Virus record (IMG/VR): IMGVR_UViG_2778261386_000007
Origin: a virus
Taxonomy: Duplodnaviria > Heunggongvirae > Uroviricota > Caudoviricetes
Direction: 5' to 3' (one strand)
Length of the DNA: 38,978 nt
This document shows, one piece after another, positions 11,700 to 37,258 of the stretch. Within the stretch, counting starts at the first letter, position 1; each line of letters starts with the position of its first letter. Position numbers and translations under genes: made by a program. The notes under the pieces are model-generated. The model was not told the DNA's origin. It did no database searches and saw only the letters and a list, made by a program, of their open reading frames with translations.

Positions 11700-11724
11700 A
11701 AGCCCGATTACTCGGGCTTTTGTT
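11700..11724 (+). terminator. Hairpin plus T-tract after Q, overlapping the 3' end of the convergent gene
   Basis: AAGCCCGA-TTAC-TCGGGCTT followed by TTGTT. Confidence 0.45.
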
Positions 11725-12727
11725 CCACATCTCGAACATAGAGAATTACTGCTGACTTAATGTCACCATCGACGTGTTTTGCGTTAATGCTCAAATGTAC
11801 AGGCTTTCTTTCCCACTCAGCTCGCTGCAATGCTTCTTTGTTTCCGGATTCATCAAGGAAAACATCCTGAACTACGCAGGTTAGACGTTGGTCGGTATCT
11901 ACGCGTCGGACCTTAACTTTGAAACTCTCTGGGTCAGTATTATTGACTTCTTCAATTCGGTAAATACCATCAATCCTCATTTCTGATGAACGTCTACGAG
12001 CATTCGTAACCAACTCTTTCGCCATTTCAGAATCAATAGTAACGCCATCAATTTGAGCGTTATCTGAACGCACAAAGGATTTGACCATTTGGGTTTTAGC
12101 GTCATACGACATACGGTCCATGTTATCGAGAAGTGGTTTTTCCGCAATCATTTCTGAAATAACCCGCAGGCGTTTAGTTTCTTGCTCGCTCATGATCTGC
12201 ATAGTCCGGAGATGTTCTTTCTCTCCATCCTTAGCAATTTCTGCAAGGCGAATATCTTTACGGTTGTCCAAGAACCGTTTAAATACTGTTACTCCGCCCC
12301 AGATGACTGCTGCGCCGAGAACAGTAAACATGATCTCAGTTGCGTTCATTTTACCAACAAGTTCCTGTGTGAGTTTGGTTAAAAAGCCATCAATGTTGAT
12401 TTCTACTATTGAAGAACCCTGTTCTACCGTAACTTCTATTTCTAGGGCATCAAGTTCTTCTTTGGTCAGTTTGCGGACGTCAGGGACACCGTACTTGGCA
12501 AGGGCATATGATTTGTTGATTTGAGCTTGCATTTCAACAAATCCCTTCATAACTGAAGGTGTTAGCGATCTGTTGAATTTTTCACCGGTTAATCTGATGG
12601 TAAGGTTTGGCCATCCGTTGAAACTTAAACTGTCAGGTAAACCATAACCATCAAGATAGCTTTCAAGCAAATCGAAGGCTTGCTGCTCAGATTCAATGTC
12701 TACATGAATCTCATCAAACTTATCCAA
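11708..12727 (-). CDS. Hypothetical membrane-anchored protein (339 aa), reverse-oriented moron between Q and the late operon
   Basis: TTG start at 12727 with GAGGA 7 nt upstream; visibly AT-rich; one central hydrophobic segment (EIMFTVLGAAVIWGGVTVFKRF) flanked by charged, helical domains; no family recognised. Confidence 0.6.
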   Translation of the reverse strand: MDKFDEIHVDIESEQQAFDLLESYLDGYGLPDSLSFNGWPNLTIRLTGEKFNRSLTPSVMKGFVEMQAQINKSYALAKYGVPDVRKLTKEELDALEIEVTVEQGSSIVEINIDGFLTKLTQELVGKMNATEIMFTVLGAAVIWGGVTVFKRFLDNRKDIRLAEIAKDGEKEHLRTMQIMSEQETKRLRVISEMIAEKPLLDNMDRMSYDAKTQMVKSFVRSDNAQIDGVTIDSEMAKELVTNARRRSSEMRIDGIYRIEEVNNTDPESFKVKVRRVDTDQRLTCVVQDVFLDESGNKEALQRAEWERKPVHLSINAKHVDGDIKSAVILYVRDVEQKPE

Positions 12728-13400: not shown

Positions 13401-14453
13401 ATGAAAAATACTGTAAAAATAAACAGTGTTGATTTAATCAACGCTGATTGCCTGCATTTTATTCAGTCCCTGCCTGATGATTCCATTGACCTGATTGTTA
13501 CCGATCCGCCTTACTTCAAAGTGAAACCTAACGGTTGGGACAATCAGTGGAAAGGGGACGAAGATTACCTTAAGTGGCTGGACCACTGTCTGGCCCAGTT
13601 CTGGCGGGTGTTAAAACCTGCCGGAAGCCTTTACCTGTTCTGTGGGCATCGCCTGGCATCTGATATTGAGATCATGATGCGTGAACGTTTCAACGTGCTT
13701 AACCATATCATCTGGGCGAAGCCGTCCGGACGTTGGAATGGGTGTAATAAAGAAAGTCTGCGCGCATATTTTCCTGCCACAGAGCGCGTTCTGTTTGCTG
13801 AACATTACCAGGGGCCATATCGCGGCAAAAGTGACGACTATGCGGCAAAAGAAAGGGAACTCAAACAGCACATAATGGCACCGCTGATATCGTATTTCAG
13901 GGATGCTCGTGCCGAACTGGGTATAACGGCAAAACAAATTGCCGAAGCCACAGGTAAGAAAAATATGGTTTCCCACTGGTTTGGTGCCAGTCAGTGGCAG
14001 TTGCCGAATGAGGCTGACTATCGGAAGTTACAGGCACTGTTTTCCCGTATAGCGGCAGAGAAGTTTCAGGAACAACAACTGGAACAACCACACCACCAGC
14101 TGGTGGCATCTTATGATTCACTGAATCGCAAATATTCTGAATTGCTGGATGAGTTTAAATCTCTCCGGCGCTATTTCTCCGTATCAGTCTCCGTGCCTTA
14201 TACCGATGTCTGGACGCATAAGCCCGTTCAGTTCTACCCGGGTAAACATCCGTGCGAGAAACCGGCGGATATGCTCCGGCAAATAATCAATGCCAGTAGT
14301 CGACCTGGTGATCTGGTTGCTGATTTCTTTATGGGATCCGGTTCCACAATAAAAGCAGCAATGGCGCTGGGGCGTCGGGCGTTAGGTGTTGAACTTGAGT
14401 CAGAGCGGTTTAATCAGACGGTGAAAGAGGTAAGTGAACTGGTGGGGAAATAA
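13401..14453 (+). CDS. DNA methyltransferase, beta-class (motif IV DPPY before motif I), probably N6-adenine (350 aa)
   Basis: IVTDPPYF near the N-terminus and DLVADFFMGSGSTIKAA near the C-terminus give the circularly permuted order of beta-class N6A/N4C enzymes; no cognate restriction gene recognised nearby. Confidence 0.85.
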   Translation: MKNTVKINSVDLINADCLHFIQSLPDDSIDLIVTDPPYFKVKPNGWDNQWKGDEDYLKWLDHCLAQFWRVLKPAGSLYLFCGHRLASDIEIMMRERFNVLNHIIWAKPSGRWNGCNKESLRAYFPATERVLFAEHYQGPYRGKSDDYAAKERELKQHIMAPLISYFRDARAELGITAKQIAEATGKKNMVSHWFGASQWQLPNEADYRKLQALFSRIAAEKFQEQQLEQPHHQLVASYDSLNRKYSELLDEFKSLRRYFSVSVSVPYTDVWTHKPVQFYPGKHPCEKPADMLRQIINASSRPGDLVADFFMGSGSTIKAAMALGRRALGVELESERFNQTVKEVSELVGK

Positions 14454-15336: not shown

Positions 15337-15712
15337 GCTGGTTATCGCTGCTTTCTTCGTTACTGTCATTGGTTCTTTCATCTGGTCAGCCAACCACTAC
15401 TACAGCAAATATCAGTACGAAAAGAAACGTGCTGATGAGGCTGAACGAAATGCTGGATCAGCAACAGCCATTACCAATAACGTCCTGCAATCACTGCAAA
15501 TCGTCAATACAGTACTGGAGGCTAACCAGCATGCAAAACAGCAGATCGCACTGGAGTCACAGAGAACCCAGGAAGATATCAAAATGGCTGTTGCGGATGA
15601 TGATTGTGCTTCACGTGCTGTGCCTGCTGCCGCTGCTGACCGGTTGCGGAAGTACGCGGACAGTTTACGTGAGCGTTCCGGTGGCACCACTGCCACCCAG
15701 CCTGACTTCTGA
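15320..15712 (+). CDS. Rz: Rz-like inner-membrane spanin (130 aa)
   Basis: N-terminal TM (LVIAAFFVTVIGSFIWSANHY) followed by a charged coiled-coil region; start overlaps the endolysin 3' end. Confidence 0.68.
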   Translation: MKLSYKLVIAAFFVTVIGSFIWSANHYYSKYQYEKKRADEAERNAGSATAITNNVLQSLQIVNTVLEANQHAKQQIALESQRTQEDIKMAVADDDCASRAVPAAAADRLRKYADSLRERSGGTTATQPDF

Positions 15713-15854
15713 TACTCCTGTACCGTTTATACCTAATCCGCTGACGTATGGTGCCAGTCTGGAGCTGAATGTGAGTCTGTTGTCTGCGCTGGCTAACTGC
15801 AATCGGGATAAAGCTGATATTCGTAAAATAGATGCAGAGAGAACTAACCATTAA
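15597..15854 (+). CDS. Rz1: Rz1-like outer-membrane lipoprotein spanin (85 aa), overlapping Rz in another frame
   Basis: MMIVLHVLCLLPLLTGC signal peptide with lipobox LLTGC, proline-rich mature part; begins inside Rz and extends 142 nt beyond its stop. Confidence 0.6.
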   Translation: MMIVLHVLCLLPLLTGCGSTRTVYVSVPVAPLPPSLTSDTPVPFIPNPLTYGASLELNVSLLSALANCNRDKADIRKIDAERTNH

Positions 15855-15875
15855 GCAATAAAATTGTCAAATTAA

Positions 15876-16502
15876 TCAGTTGTCAAATGAATATACGTTA
15901 AAGGTATATGTCGACATAATTTCACCAAGTACCTCAATACATACACTTTTTTTATGAAAATTACTGGGAAATGAACTTAGCTCCTCAAGACATTGCACAT
16001 AAGTGCTGATATCACTTGCATCACGTTCAAGGAATTTCACTTGACCAAAAGAAGGAGTTTTAATCTTGGTTCTTTGCTGGATTATATGGATAAAGTGTGT
16101 AGTTGGTGAAACTATTACTCTTGAAATATCGGAAATGATGTCTTCTTGAACTTGCCGATAAAGTAAATCCTTTGGGTAATGGTGTTTTATCTCGATGGTT
16201 GCAACATTGCCATTATGTTCAGACGTTAATATCGACTGGTTATAAAGTGATATGTCAACAGCGCCGATACCGAGTTTTGGATGCTCACTTAAAGCAGTTA
16301 GTGTGCTGATTTGATTGAGTATAACAACTAACTCATCACGTATTTGTGTTTCATGTTTGCGATTGTAGAAGTAGCCATTCAGTTCATTTAACTTTTTATG
16401 CATCCTATCGTGACTAATTGCTTCGATCAGTAAATCCTGAATCATACTTTTCTCTAGGTAATCCGAACGGTTGTAAGTGACAGTATTGTGCTGGCATGTC
16501 AT
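15876..16502 (-). CDS. Hypothetical protein (208 aa) with possible PD-(D/E)xK nuclease-like motif; downstream gene of an AT-rich reverse cassette
   Basis: Visibly AT-rich; hydrophobic-D ... hydrophobic-E-x-K spacing (GIGAVDISL, then 22 residues, then TIEIKHH); alternative ATG at 16445; no family recognised. Confidence 0.55.
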   Translation of the reverse strand: MTCQHNTVTYNRSDYLEKSMIQDLLIEAISHDRMHKKLNELNGYFYNRKHETQIRDELVVILNQISTLTALSEHPKLGIGAVDISLYNQSILTSEHNGNVATIEIKHHYPKDLLYRQVQEDIISDISRVIVSPTTHFIHIIQQRTKIKTPSFGQVKFLERDASDISTYVQCLEELSSFPSNFHKKSVCIEVLGEIMSTYTFNVYSFDN

Positions 16503-16545
16503 TAATATGTAAAGGTATTGTGAATGCCAGAAAGATAACGAAGTA

Positions 16546-16881
16546 TCATCGATAGAAAAACTTTACAGCCCACTCGTAAACAGCTTTGTAAATCGGTTCA
16601 TGGTAAATACTATCGATACTATTCAGATGTGCGATCATCGCCTCCACAGTTGTAGTGGTTGTTTCTAATATTTCGATTATTGCAGGGCGGTCATCATCTT
16701 CATCGAAGTATTCGAACAGCAGTACAGGTTTACCATGCAATTCAGCATCTGAGACTCTAAGGTTACAACTACCGCTCAACTCAAAGTGAATTTTGTAATT
16801 ACCTTCTACAGAATGGCCTACGGGGAAAAAGTATAGGGTGTCATCTTTGTTCAAAAGCCATTCCCATTCATAACTATTCAT
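16546..16881 (-). CDS. Hypothetical acidic protein (111 aa), upstream gene of the AT-rich reverse cassette
   Basis: ATG at 16881 with AGGAG 7 nt upstream (minus-strand AACAGGAGTTCACAAATG); acidic stretch EYFDEDDDRPAIIEILETTTT; 43-bp spacer to the next gene. Confidence 0.55.
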   Translation of the reverse strand: MNSYEWEWLLNKDDTLYFFPVGHSVEGNYKIHFELSGSCNLRVSDAELHGKPVLLFEYFDEDDDRPAIIEILETTTTTVEAMIAHLNSIDSIYHEPIYKAVYEWAVKFFYR

Positions 16882-17031
16882 TTGTGAACTCCTGTTCATT
16901 GAGTTTCAACAACTATCAACTACATCCAGCGAAGCATAAAAGATCGTTTATGGCAAAACCGGAATGGAGTGCGATTCGATTCTGAGAAGGGTGCCACGTA
17001 TCGTACGCGAACCATCCAAGAGGATTATGCA

Positions 17032-17382
17032 ATGCCCCTACGAACCCCAAAAGCCTGCCGCGTTCGCGGCTGCCGTAATACCACTACAGACCCGTCAGGC
17101 TACTGCGAAAGCCACAAAAACGAAGGCTGGAAACAATACAAGCCGGGGCAATCTCGTCATCAGCGCGGTTATGGTTCGAAGTGGGATGTTATCCGCGCGC
17201 GTGTGCTGAAGCGTGACAAAGGTTTATGTCAATTATGTCTGCATGCTGGTGTGGTGGGTGAGGCGAAAACCGTTGACCACATCATTCCCAAAGCGCATGG
17301 CGGCACCGATGCCGACAGTAACCTGCAGAGTCTGTGCTGGCCGTGTCATAAGGCGAAGACGGCCCGTGAACGGCTGAAGTAA
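17032..17382 (+). CDS. HNH endonuclease, terminase-associated (116 aa)
   Basis: CxxC...H-N-H pattern (CQLCLHAGVVGEAKTVDHIIPKAHGGTDADSNLQSLCWPCHKAK); AGAGGA SD; immediately upstream of the terminase small subunit, as in HK97-like cos phages. Confidence 0.85.
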   Translation: MPLRTPKACRVRGCRNTTTDPSGYCESHKNEGWKQYKPGQSRHQRGYGSKWDVIRARVLKRDKGLCQLCLHAGVVGEAKTVDHIIPKAHGGTDADSNLQSLCWPCHKAKTARERLK

Positions 17383-36109: not shown

Positions 36110-37258
36110 CTAAGTGTTTTTTATTATGCCCCTGATTTTCATAGCGGTTTGTTTTGTTATATTAATGAAAGGTAGTTCAATTAATTTAAATGTTATGCAT
36201 GATAAAAGTGTGACGCAAAAAGCAGTAATGCTTATTAACATAATAAAAAAATAATTAGAATAATTACTAGGGATGACCCATGTCATTACACAATAAAGGA
36301 ATACTCCATGTAAAAGATAAATACTATATGTTGTTTCACCAAGTTTTCTTGTTAAATTTAATCTCAATATACCATAAAAATCACAGCCTGATGCGATAAG
36401 TATAAAGCAAACACCGCAAATTATGAGAGGGAGTGGAGCGTAGGTTGTAGGAAAATATATCATTTCGTAACTTAGTAATGCAATTATCATAATAGGCGTT
36501 ATTTTAGCTTTAGCAACTCTATGTACATAATTATTTGAATAAGAGGCTAACAGTCCAAATAAAAATGAAATAACATGTATTTTTTTTGATGGGTAACATA
36601 AGAAAATCACTAGAACTAAAACACTTATTATAATCATGTGGATGCTGACTCTTCTTTTGAAGAGTGCAGCTATAACCGGTAATGAAAAATAAAAAAACCA
36701 TTCGTAAACGAGGGTCCATGTTACAGCTGCATTGATAGTGAATGAGTCCTTAACACCGTTAATATTTGGCATCCCTAATGCGGTGAATGGTGCCCATCTC
36801 ATGAGTGACACAGTAAGAGAGGCAGGGGAGACATGTACGCTCCATCTTGATTTAAAACCTATAACAAGAAGAACTAAACATAAACTTACAATAAACATAG
36901 GAGTTAATCGCAGAAATCTCGATATATATAGTCTTACCCAATCCTGGTCACTTGAGCGGATCTTCGAAAAAAATAGATATCCGGTGATCATGAAAAAGAA
37001 TGAGACACCAACTTGGCCTAAATTTGTTAATAAGTTTGATGACGGAGTTTTCCATACCCCGGTTAATAAGTAGCCATGCCAAATAGCGGCATGATGAATA
37101 AGTACGAAGATGGCTAAGAATCCTCTCATTCCATCTATCTGATTATTTCTTCCATGATCGACAAGTTGTATAGGAGAAATTTCATCAAATAATTTTACAG
37201 CCAATAATGACAAGATTATCACGGATGTTATTAATAATAGGTTATCAATTTCAAACAT
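36110..37258 (-). CDS. Acyltransferase-3 family integral membrane protein, O-antigen O-acetyltransferase-like (382 aa)
   Basis: Strongly AT-rich; many TM helices; N-terminal motif IDGMRGFLAIFVLIHHA typical of acyltransferase-3 (Oac/OafA-like) enzymes; reverse orientation at the prophage right end. Confidence 0.8.
   Translation of the reverse strand: MFEIDNLLLITSVIILSLLAVKLFDEISPIQLVDHGRNNQIDGMRGFLAIFVLIHHAAIWHGYLLTGVWKTPSSNLLTNLGQVGVSFFFMITGYLFFSKIRSSDQDWVRLYISRFLRLTPMFIVSLCLVLLVIGFKSRWSVHVSPASLTVSLMRWAPFTALGMPNINGVKDSFTINAAVTWTLVYEWFFYFSLPVIAALFKRRVSIHMIIISVLVLVIFLCYPSKKIHVISFLFGLLASYSNNYVHRVAKAKITPIMIIALLSYEMIYFPTTYAPLPLIICGVCFILIASGCDFYGILRLNLTRKLGETTYSIYLLHGVFLYCVMTWVIPSNYSNYFFIMLISITAFCVTLLSCITFKLIELPFINITKQTAMKIRGIIKNT

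What the first reader, a model, noticed from the sequence alone, without database searches (positions are those of the whole stretch)
15876..16900. AT-rich reverse-strand two-gene cassette between Rz1 and the HNH/terminase module: candidate toxin or defence pair
Seen in sequence: two co-oriented minus-strand genes (111 aa then 208 aa, 43-bp spacer) with visibly lower GC than the flanking lysis and packaging genes, in the slot where lambda carries the reverse-oriented moron bor. The upstream gene has a perfect AGGAG SD and encodes an acidic protein; the downstream protein has a hydrophobic-D then hydrophobic-E-x-K pattern (GIGAVDISL, 22 residues, TIEIKHH) compatible with a PD-(D/E)xK nuclease core. 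Inference: this is a horizontally acquired accessory operon, plausibly a nuclease effector with a partner or immunity protein. I do not recognise either protein.
Basis: partly seen in the sequence, partly recalled or inferred. Interest (0 to 1): 0.72.

Follow-up and report, generated by a model that had tools for sequence, protein, structure and literature searches.

The report
Two stacked prophage cargo genes, one nuclease
The AT-rich reverse-strand segment is real prophage cargo, but it is two separate single-gene insertions stacked in a variable slot, not a matched pair: one is an uncharacterised restriction-enzyme-like nuclease, a reasonable but untested anti-phage candidate, and the other is a small acidic protein of unknown function.

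Summary
Two minus-strand genes lie in an AT-rich segment (GC 0.37 against 0.51 for the window) between Rz1 and the HNH/terminase genes of an SfV/e14-like prophage.

- **Gene lengths.** The conserved start of the larger gene gives 189 aa (15876-16445), not 208. The spacer is therefore 100 bp, not 43. The smaller gene is 111 aa (16546-16881).
- **Effector plus partner or immunity protein: not supported.** Each gene family occurs alone in the same lysis/terminase slot in many other Enterobacterales prophages. The two are adjacent only in the E. coli lineage.
- **No linked methyltransferase.** None is consistently nearby. Neither protein matches Pfam, NCBIfam, PADLOC or any PDB sequence.
- **The slot is variable.** In relatives it is empty or holds Iss/Bor, DUF2441 or other genes. 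In Proteus it holds a Lamassu system next to the nuclease.

Most likely each gene is an independent moron, and the nuclease is a stand-alone DNA endonuclease used in phage-phage conflict. That function is inferred, not shown.

The parts
15815..17031 (.). Variable AT-rich cargo segment between the lysis cassette and the packaging module
   Evidence: Homology to an 'empty-slot' E. coli prophage (L069) ends at 15814 and resumes at 17032. GC is 0.374 against 0.509 for the window. The slot holds different cargo in relatives.
15876..16445 (-). 189-aa stand-alone PD-(D/E)xK (restriction-endonuclease-like) nuclease gene, here called B189 (WP_000613842.1, phrog_12494). Candidate catalytic residues are E32 (16350-16352), D64 (16254-16256), E85 (16191-16193) and K87 (16185-16187).
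16446..16502 (-). In-frame 19-codon upstream extension of the ORF (the '208 aa' reading), probably not translated
   Evidence: It is absent from homologues in other genera, from the PHROG profile and from PGAP's call.
16446..16545 (-). 100-bp spacer between the two genes, with a sigma-70-like site TTTACA-17-CACAAT (16513-16485)
   Evidence: Promoter scan. The same site is kept in L027, where the upstream gene is a different one on the other strand. It also carries a 17-nt imperfect direct repeat, 16474-16490 and 16506-16522.
16546..16881 (-). 111-aa acidic protein gene of unknown fold, here called A111 (WP_001089763.1, phrog_14397)
   Evidence: ORF and AGGAG. pI 4.56. The family is restricted to Enterobacterales, with no Pfam match. 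The AF2 model is unusable at pLDDT 53. dN/dS is 0.14-0.25. It occurs alone in the same slot in other prophages.
16889..16893 (-). AGGAG Shine-Dalgarno sequence for the 111-aa gene
   Evidence: Read directly from the sequence.
16950..16985 (+). 11-codon fossil of the 5' end of a Terminase_2-type small terminase gene (MAKPEWSAIRF*), carried in with the 111-aa module
   Evidence: Translation compared with the intact TerS start MAKPDWGALQ in L061. The DNA alignment of the upstream regions shows CCGGTTTTGCCAT in nearly all solo loci.
15597..15854 (+). Rz1-like lipoprotein gene (left flank, convergent with the nuclease gene)
   Evidence: PGAP annotation of the identical prophage, mapped onto the window.
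17032..17382 (+). HNH endonuclease gene of the HNH-TerS(P27)-TerL packaging module (right flank)
   Evidence: Annotation. Pfam HNH, E 6.5e-15.

Best explanation
The segment is cargo in a recombination-prone 'moron' slot between the lysis genes and the packaging genes of an SfV/e14-like prophage integrated at tRNA-Thr next to proA. It is two independent single-gene modules stacked head to tail, not a co-evolved pair.

Module 1 (15876-16445) encodes a 189-aa stand-alone nuclease with a restriction-endonuclease (PD-(D/E)xK) core and an intact E...D...ExK metal-binding and catalytic set. It most likely acts as a Mg2+-dependent DNA endonuclease made from its own promoter in the lysogen, cutting foreign DNA such as that of a superinfecting phage. 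This would be prophage-encoded exclusion or defence. Whatever spares the host's own DNA is not a linked methyltransferase and not a linked antitoxin. It must come from the enzyme's target choice (modified DNA, a long or rare site, or a DNA structure) or from control of its activity.

Module 2 (16546-16881) encodes a 111-aa acidic cytoplasmic protein that is an independent moron in its own right. My best guess is a protein-binding inhibitor or decoy used in phage-host or phage-phage conflict.

Shown: the anatomy, the fold and motif, the independence of the two genes, the variability of the slot, and purifying selection. Inferred: nuclease activity, expression in the lysogen, and any defence role.
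For: Fold and motif:
- Confident model with the canonical order of secondary-structure elements.
- K30/E32/D64/E85/K87 are the only invariant columns across 32 relatives at 19-59% identity.
- Individual distant members give weak hits to HSDR_N, PDDEXK_9, DUF234 and DpnII-MboI, all of this superfamily.

Independence of the two genes:
- B189 occurs alone next to Rz/Rz1 and HNH or TerS in Yersinia, Citrobacter and Proteus prophages.
- A111 occurs alone, divergent from TerS, in prophages with at least four different terminase types.
- A111 is replaced by another ORF in L027 and L028.

Cargo status:
- Present in 80 of 5426 E. coli genomes.
- The slot is empty or holds Iss/Bor, DUF2441, KilA-N, YfbU or other ORFs in relatives.
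- Low GC and GC3.
- A terS fossil marks import from a different phage type.

Defence context: in Proteus prophages L005 and L053 a Lamassu system (LmuA 1e-148, LmuB 9e-237) sits directly beside B189 in this slot.

Both genes are maintained: dN/dS is 0.1-0.25.
Against: - No experimental data bear on either gene.
- Neither protein matches any PADLOC model.
- Promoter evidence is weak: one 9-of-12 site for B189 and none called for A111. No terminator was found.
- Expression in the lysogen is assumed from orientation and composition only.
- Distant relatives of the nuclease (25-30% identity) are solitary chromosomal genes beside ordinary metabolic genes, so the wider family is not tied to phages or to defence.
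- In the 25 E. coli-lineage loci with a full-length nuclease gene, A111 is beside it in all but L027, L028 and the contig-end fragment L031, so a functional link acquired in that lineage cannot be excluded.
- Neither protein is found in 50,697 isolated phage genomes.
Confidence: 0.45

Rival explanations
1. The two genes are one operon: the 189-aa nuclease is a toxin or effector, and the 111-aa acidic protein is its antitoxin, immunity protein or regulatory partner.
For: The order (small acidic protein first, nuclease second) and shared orientation fit a type II toxin-antitoxin layout. In the 25 E. coli-lineage loci with a full-length nuclease gene, the two genes are adjacent in all but L027, L028 and the contig-end fragment L031. 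In L058-L060 the nuclease gene is the one disrupted, by IS3, while the small gene stays intact. The consensus TATAAT seen upstream of solo nuclease genes reads TACAAC here, so read-through from the upstream gene could matter.
Against: The nuclease is intact and conserved without the small gene in about 30 loci. In several of these nothing else lies between it and its neighbours, for example L004 and L051-L056. The small gene is solitary in all seven divergent lineages examined. L027 and L028 keep the nuclease but swap out the small gene. The spacer is 100 bp with its own promoter-like site, with no overlap or coupling.
Confidence: 0.1
2. The 189-aa protein is a free-standing homing endonuclease, a selfish element. 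It cuts the empty lysis/terminase junction of related phages and copies itself in by repair. That would explain why it always sits at the same site.
For: Distribution is sporadic at one and the same junction in phages with unrelated terminases. It is a stand-alone nuclease tolerated without a methylase or antitoxin, as expected for a long recognition site. GC is low. Pieces of the flanking terS gene travelled with the modules. PD-(D/E)xK homing enzymes exist (I-Ssp6803I; from my own knowledge).
Against: The non-nuclease 111-aa gene and many other cargo genes (Iss, DUF2441, Lamassu) use the same slot in the same way, so ordinary recombination at conserved gene boundaries is enough to explain it. 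The gene points against the late operon, which suits expression in the lysogen rather than during co-infection. Flanking Rz and HNH alleles vary with the nuclease alleles, as in plain vertical linkage. Distant relatives are chromosomal and not at such junctions.
Confidence: 0.15
3. The 189-aa protein is the nuclease of a restriction-modification system whose methyltransferase is unlinked. Candidates are the type II-like methyltransferase at 13401-14453, another prophage methylase, or a host-wide one such as Dam.
For: The best structural matches are orthodox type II enzymes (SwaI, BglI, EcoRV). The window carries a methyltransferase with a full-length match to a type II model (1.6e-151). Homologues of that methyltransferase also occur near the nuclease in Citrobacter (L003) and in three loci of the roughly 52%-identity group that includes the Proteus genomes (L047, L048, L050). 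All hosts are Enterobacterales, which as a group have Dam (my own knowledge).
Against: L013, L015, L018, L024 and L029 have the intact cassette, but neither that methyltransferase nor the N6-adenine methylase lies within 8 kb, where it sits in their relatives. Most non-E. coli loci lack it too. No member of the family has an adjacent methylase, including the distant chromosomal ones. There is no significant match to any REase family in Pfam or PADLOC.
Confidence: 0.1
4. The nuclease serves the phage's own lytic cycle, for example host DNA breakdown, recombination or junction resolution, or help with packaging, rather than conflict with other phages.
Against: It is absent from most close relatives of the same prophage, which have an empty slot or other cargo, so it is not needed for growth. 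It is absent from all 50,697 isolated phages. It is transcribed against the late operon and differs in composition. The prophage already has RusA.
Confidence: 0.1

Closest known systems
Orthodox type II restriction endonucleases of the EcoRV-like branch (R.SwaI 5tgq, BglI 1dmu, EcoRV 1eo3)
   Same: Same core fold. An acidic residue lies in the first core helix, D at the start of the second strand and ExK in the third strand. The size is that of a small homodimeric enzyme.
   Different: Only 12-16% identity over about 123 aligned residues, with Z no higher than 8.2. No sequence-level match to any REase family. No cognate methyltransferase is consistently linked. The recognition elements are unknown.
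Lambda bor / E. coli iss and other lambdoid 'morons' (Hendrix/Juhala sense)
   Same: Same genomic slot after Rz/Rz1, reverse orientation, aberrant GC, and presence/absence among close relatives. Iss itself occupies this junction in related E. coli prophages.
   Different: Bor/Iss is an outer-membrane lipoprotein for serum resistance. These two proteins are cytoplasmic, and one is a nuclease. Promoter and terminator are not demonstrated here.
Prophage-encoded single-gene nuclease defences, such as e14 McrA (type IV, HNH) and P2 Old (from my own knowledge), and defence hotspots in P2/P4 (PMC9122126)
   Same: A nuclease carried as accessory cargo in a variable prophage hotspot. The hotspot holds a known system (Lamassu) in relatives.
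   Different: A different fold from McrA and Old. There is no reader or ATPase domain, no match in PADLOC, and no phenotype is known.
Type II toxin-antitoxin or effector-immunity pairs
   Same: A small acidic gene precedes a nuclease gene on the same strand.
   Different: The two families are not co-inherited outside one E. coli lineage. The spacer is 100 bp with a separate promoter-like site.

Membership tests
PD-(D/E)xK nuclease superfamily | Core alpha-beta-beta-beta-alpha-beta fold | tested here: met
PD-(D/E)xK nuclease superfamily | Conserved D ... (D/E)xK on strands 2 and 3, often with an acidic residue in helix 1 | tested here: met
   D64 lies just before strand 2, E85-x-K87 in strand 3 and E32 in helix 1. 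All are invariant in 32 relatives.
PD-(D/E)xK nuclease superfamily | Metal-dependent phosphodiester cleavage | not testable with these tools
   Needs purified protein and D64A/E85A/K87A mutants.
Type II restriction-modification system | Cognate methyltransferase genetically linked to the nuclease | tested here: not met
   Five full-length E. coli loci have the cassette but neither prophage methyltransferase. Most other genera lack one within 8 kb.
Type II restriction-modification system | Sequence membership of a described REase family | tested here: not met
   No Pfam, NCBIfam, PADLOC or PDB sequence match for the protein. Only sub-threshold hits of a few distant members.
Two-gene toxin-antitoxin / effector-immunity module | The two genes are co-inherited across lineages | tested here: not met
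   Each family is mostly solitary. They are adjacent only in the E. coli lineage.
Two-gene toxin-antitoxin / effector-immunity module | Single transcription unit with tight gene spacing | tested here: inconclusive
   100-bp spacer with a 9-of-12 promoter-like site. There are no transcript data.
Two-gene toxin-antitoxin / effector-immunity module | Toxicity of gene 2 neutralised by gene 1 | not testable with these tools
   Needs expression tests.
Known anti-phage defence systems (PADLOC-DB v2) | Match to a model of a known or candidate system | tested here: not met
   Zero families for both proteins at E up to 10.
Moron (autonomous accessory gene in a temperate phage) | Present or absent between otherwise similar phages, with deviant base composition | tested here: met
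Moron (autonomous accessory gene in a temperate phage) | Own promoter and terminator; expressed from the repressed prophage | tested here: inconclusive
   One weak promoter-like site for B189, none for A111 and no terminator. A TATAAT is conserved next to terS in solo B189 loci, but the scanner called no -35.
Free-standing homing endonuclease | Sporadic occupancy of one site in related genomes | tested here: met
   The same holds for non-nuclease cargo in the slot, so this is not discriminating.
Free-standing homing endonuclease | Cleaves the insert-free allele and is over-transmitted | not testable with these tools
   Needs cleavage assays and crosses.

The most novel reading that the evidence does not exclude
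The 189-aa protein founds a new single-gene anti-phage system. It would be a minimal restriction-fold nuclease that tells foreign DNA from host DNA without any methyltransferase, reader domain or partner, for instance by cutting related superinfecting phages at the insert-free junction, so that defence and homing are combined. The 111-aa protein would be a second, separate new exclusion or anti-defence factor in the same hotspot.
Probability: 0.25. Interest if true: 0.6.

Novelty: new member of a known kind. Interest (0 to 1): 0.35.

Why it matters
If the nuclease is active in lysogens, it would be a very small, partner-less restriction-fold enzyme whose way of sparing host DNA is unknown. That makes a compact case for studying self/non-self choice, and it would add a defence or exclusion gene to the list for Enterobacterales prophages.

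The work also marks the Rz1/terminase junction as a cargo hotspot. It holds Iss/Bor, Lamassu, this nuclease, the acidic protein and several unknowns, and could be mined systematically.

As it stands, this is one more pair of uncharacterised prophage morons, and the more interesting toxin-plus-partner reading is not supported.

Tried and rejected
- **Sequence libraries.** Pfam, NCBIfam, PADLOC and PDB sequence searches gave nothing for either protein. PHROGs gave only 'unknown function' families.
- **Foldseek.** Searches of the nuclease model against the PDB and BFVD gave nothing significant. The afdb50 library was not available.
- **Structure of the 111-aa protein.** A profile search widened its family to Hafnia, Serratia, Pantoea and Citrobacter but added no annotation.
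- **Restriction-modification idea.** Tested against both prophage methyltransferases and rejected as a linked system.
- **RNA genes and repeats.** No Rfam match and no meaningful repeats or terminator in the segment.
- **Isolated phages.** No DNA or protein match in 50,697 phage records.
- **Literature.** Searches by accession number, PHROG id and topic found no paper on either protein. Two searches failed on term syntax.
- **LmuC-like accessory of Lamassu.** Considered and rejected: there is no PADLOC LmuC hit, and most loci have no Lamassu.
- **Second terS fossil.** A decayed second terS fossil upstream of the nuclease gene is only suggestive and is not claimed.

Full report
**1. What is in the sequence**

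Two minus-strand ORFs lie at 15876-16502 and 16546-16899. The window is a complete-looking prophage that starts just after proA and tRNA-Thr. An E. coli chromosome (UPEC_U013) matches the 1,111-bp cassette query (15850-16960) at 100% identity and is annotated in that region. In that record the two genes lie between the Rz1-like lysC gene and an HNH / TerS(P27 family) / TerL packaging module. The prophage has lambdoid early genes, an HK97-type head and a Mu-like contractile tail.

GC drops to 0.32-0.39 across the two genes, against 0.48-0.60 on either side. The segment as a whole is 0.374, against 0.509 for the window. GC3 is 0.31 and 0.38, against 0.66 for TerL.

Two corrections are needed. 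First, the larger gene starts at Met20 of the ORF. All full-length homologues begin MIQ(D/N/E)LL, the PHROG profile aligns from residue 20, and PGAP aa. The gene is therefore 15876-16445. Second, the spacer to the upstream gene is 100 bp, not 43. This spacer holds the only promoter-like site that the scan found upstream of either gene's start codon, TTTACA-17-CACAAT at 16513-16485.

**2. The 189-aa protein is a restriction-endonuclease-fold nuclease of an undescribed family**

It has no match in Pfam, NCBIfam, PADLOC or among PDB sequences. In PHROGs it matches only phrog_12494, of unknown function.

A word-indexed search of 5.8 billion proteins found 27 clusters, all from Enterobacterales. 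An exhaustive HMM search of 1.84 billion representatives found only 42 proteins at E < 0.001. The family is therefore small.

AlphaFold2 on the 16-sequence alignment gave a confident model (pLDDT 84.6, pTM 0.85). The element order is helix 29-46, strands 49-53, 65-69 and 80-89, helix 97-107, strand 117-127. That is the alpha-beta-beta-beta-alpha-beta core of PD-(D/E)xK enzymes.

The motif evidence is stronger. In an alignment of 32 relatives at 19-59% identity, the only invariant columns are K30, E32, D64, E85 and K87. D64 sits at the start of strand 2, E85-x-K87 in strand 3 and E32 in the first core helix, exactly where the catalytic residues of this superfamily lie. A few distant members give weak hits to HSDR_N, PDDEXK_9, DUF234 and DpnII-MboI, which are all members of this superfamily.

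**3. The 111-aa protein**

It is acidic (pI 4.56; 20 D+E against 8 K+R) and has no signal peptide or membrane segment in the sequence. It matches only phrog_14397, of unknown function. The family is again confined to Enterobacterales: Escherichia, Pectobacterium, Hafnia, Serratia, Citrobacter and Pantoea. It comprises 37 clusters in a profile search, none with a Pfam domain. The AlphaFold2 model was poor (pLDDT 53), so I did not run a fold search on it. Its function is unknown.

**4. The two genes are not a pair**

I fetched 59 loci that encode relatives of the nuclease and located the neighbouring genes by tblastn.

- The 111-aa gene lies beside the nuclease gene only in the E. coli lineage, where the nuclease is at least 94% identical to the window copy.
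- In the Yersinia, Citrobacter and metagenomic loci (61-71% identity) and in the Proteus group (about 51%), the nuclease gene is alone.
- It still lies convergent with Rz/Rz1 and divergent from HNH or TerS. In several loci nothing else lies in between (L004, L051-L056).
- In L027 and L028 the nuclease gene is 96% identical to the window copy, but the 111-aa gene is replaced by an unrelated 151-aa ORF on the other strand.

The converse also holds. I looked up seven homologues of the 111-aa protein at 47-75% identity. No fetched locus contained a relative of the nuclease (tblastn for L061-L068; gene tables for the rest). In five lineages the gene lies divergent from the packaging genes and ahead of the lysis genes, in prophages with Terminase_2/3, Terminase_2/6 or DUF2280-type terminases. 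The other two, in Pectobacterium and Pantoea, lie in degraded or chromosomal settings.

Each gene is therefore an autonomous module that uses the same slot. The E. coli arrangement is a stack of two.

A small fossil fits this history. Just upstream of the 111-aa gene, the plus strand at 16950-16985 reads MAKPEWSAIRF-stop. This is the first codons of the Terminase_2-type TerS (MAKPDWGALQ...) that flanks the solo copies. The window's own TerS is of the unrelated P27 type. The module was therefore imported from a different kind of phage together with a stub of its neighbour.

**5. The slot is a cargo hotspot**

The cassette occurs in 80 of 5426 complete E. coli genomes. The flanking lysis and packaging DNA matches in 3317 genomes.

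At the same junction, related prophages have one of the following:

- nothing, with 26 bp between Rz1 and HNH (L069);
- a 169-aa ORF;
- a 74-aa ORF plus a 146-aa ORF;
- a DUF2441 protein;
- a KilA-N protein;
- YfbU;
- iss, the homologue of lambda bor.

Against the empty allele, homology stops at 15814 and resumes at 17032.

In Proteus prophages L005 and L053, a Lamassu system sits directly beside the nuclease gene in this slot: LmuA with a Cap4 nuclease domain (E 1e-148) and LmuB (E 9e-237). A recognised defence system therefore does use this site.

**6. Tests of specific mechanisms**

- **Restriction-modification.** The window has a methyltransferase with a full-length type II match (13401-14453), and some relatives also carry an N6-adenine methylase. 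However, L013, L015, L018, L024 and L029 carry the intact cassette with neither enzyme in the region where relatives have them. Most loci from other genera have none within 8 kb. A linked system is excluded. An unlinked or host-wide methylase is not.
- **Toxin-antitoxin.** Excluded as an obligate relationship by section 4.
- **Selection.** Both genes are under purifying selection among E. coli alleles (dN/dS 0.09-0.26). One lineage lost most of the nuclease gene to an IS3 insertion and rearrangement.
- **Wider relatives.** Relatives of the nuclease at 25-30% identity are solitary chromosomal genes, for example next to copCD, and again have no methylase.
- **Isolated phages.** Neither protein is present in 50,697 isolated phage genomes.
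- **RNA and repeats.** There is no Rfam match and no notable repeat in the segment.

**7. Interpretation**

Shown:

- The segment is AT-rich mobile cargo in a variable slot.
- One gene encodes a restriction-fold nuclease with an intact active-site set.
- The other encodes an acidic protein of unknown fold.
- The two are independent modules.

Inferred:

- Both are expressed from the prophage. This rests on orientation against the late operon, composition, and one weak promoter-like site.
- The nuclease is most likely a DNA endonuclease aimed at foreign DNA. Its self-sparing would come from target choice rather than from a partner gene.

I put about 0.45 on this overall reading. Most of the uncertainty is in the defence role, not in the anatomy.

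**8. Novelty and score**

No paper or database entry describes either protein. The kind of thing is familiar, though: uncharacterised morons in a prophage hotspot, one of them a member of a very large nuclease superfamily. I rate it a new member of a known kind, with interest 0.35.

The most novel reading still open has probability about 0.25 and would deserve about 0.6 if true. In it, the nuclease is a minimal, partner-less restriction-fold defence or homing nuclease, and the acidic protein is a separate new factor.

Noticed in passing
window 16950-16985 (+): An 11-codon stub, MAKPEWSAIRF-stop, matches the start of Terminase_2-type small terminases (MAKPDWG...) that flank solo copies of the 111-aa gene in other prophages. 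It is a fossil of the module's import into a phage with a different (P27/HNH) packaging system.
   Followed up: yes
window 16455-16500 (-): The region upstream of the nuclease gene aligns loosely with the CCGGTTTTGCCATGTATAATCC junction (terS start plus TATAAT) found upstream of solo nuclease genes. Here it reads ...TGTCACTTACAACC. This may be a second, decayed terS fossil with an eroded -10 element.
   Followed up: partly
window 11708-12727 (-): Another reverse-oriented 339-aa ORF lies between the Q antiterminator and the methyltransferase gene, with no Pfam or PADLOC match. It is present in only some relatives (L001, L012, L023). It is a second moron slot and could be tested as a partner of the neighbouring methyltransferase.
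   Followed up: partly
window 13401-14453 (+): A 350-aa N6/N4 DNA methyltransferase just upstream of the holin gives a full-length match to a PADLOC type II MTase model (E 1.6e-151). It is present in only about a third of cassette-bearing E. coli loci, and homologues occur in Citrobacter (L003) and in three loci of the roughly 52%-identity group that includes the Proteus genomes (L047, L048, L050).
   Followed up: partly
window 36110-37258 (-): A reverse-oriented 382-aa Acyl_transf_3 protein (E 8e-33) lies near the tail-fibre end of the prophage. It is probably an O-antigen acetyltransferase-type lysogenic conversion gene.
   Followed up: no
L005 118-3018 and L053 (Proteus prophages): A Lamassu system (LmuB 579 aa, LmuA 369 aa with a Cap4 nuclease domain) occupies the same lysis/terminase slot, divergent from the nuclease homologue and 278 bp away from it.
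   Followed up: yes
L058-L060, about 8114 onward: The nuclease gene is cut after codon 38 by an IS3-family element. A segment from a second prophage follows (TerS, HNH and a 168-aa ORF). The 111-aa gene stays intact.
   Followed up: partly
L027 and L028, 177-632 bp upstream of the nuclease gene: The 111-aa gene is replaced by a 151-aa ORF on the opposite strand. That ORF has a hydrophobic stretch and no Pfam or PADLOC match.
   Followed up: partly
window 16474-16490 and 16506-16522: An imperfect 17-nt direct repeat (CACAATAC...), spaced 32 nt, lies in the spacer between the two genes and overlaps the promoter-like site. It could be a regulator-binding site or chance.
   Followed up: no
L087 616-1767 (metagenome contig): A distant relative of the nuclease (P0049, 182 aa) is preceded by another 182-aa gene on the same strand, possibly a tandem paralogue. 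This was not checked.
   Followed up: no
L081 9219-10590: The island that carries a distant relative of the nuclease (P0065) also has two S-AdoMet lyase genes (the anti-restriction type known from phage T3) and a DUF2779 protein.
   Followed up: no
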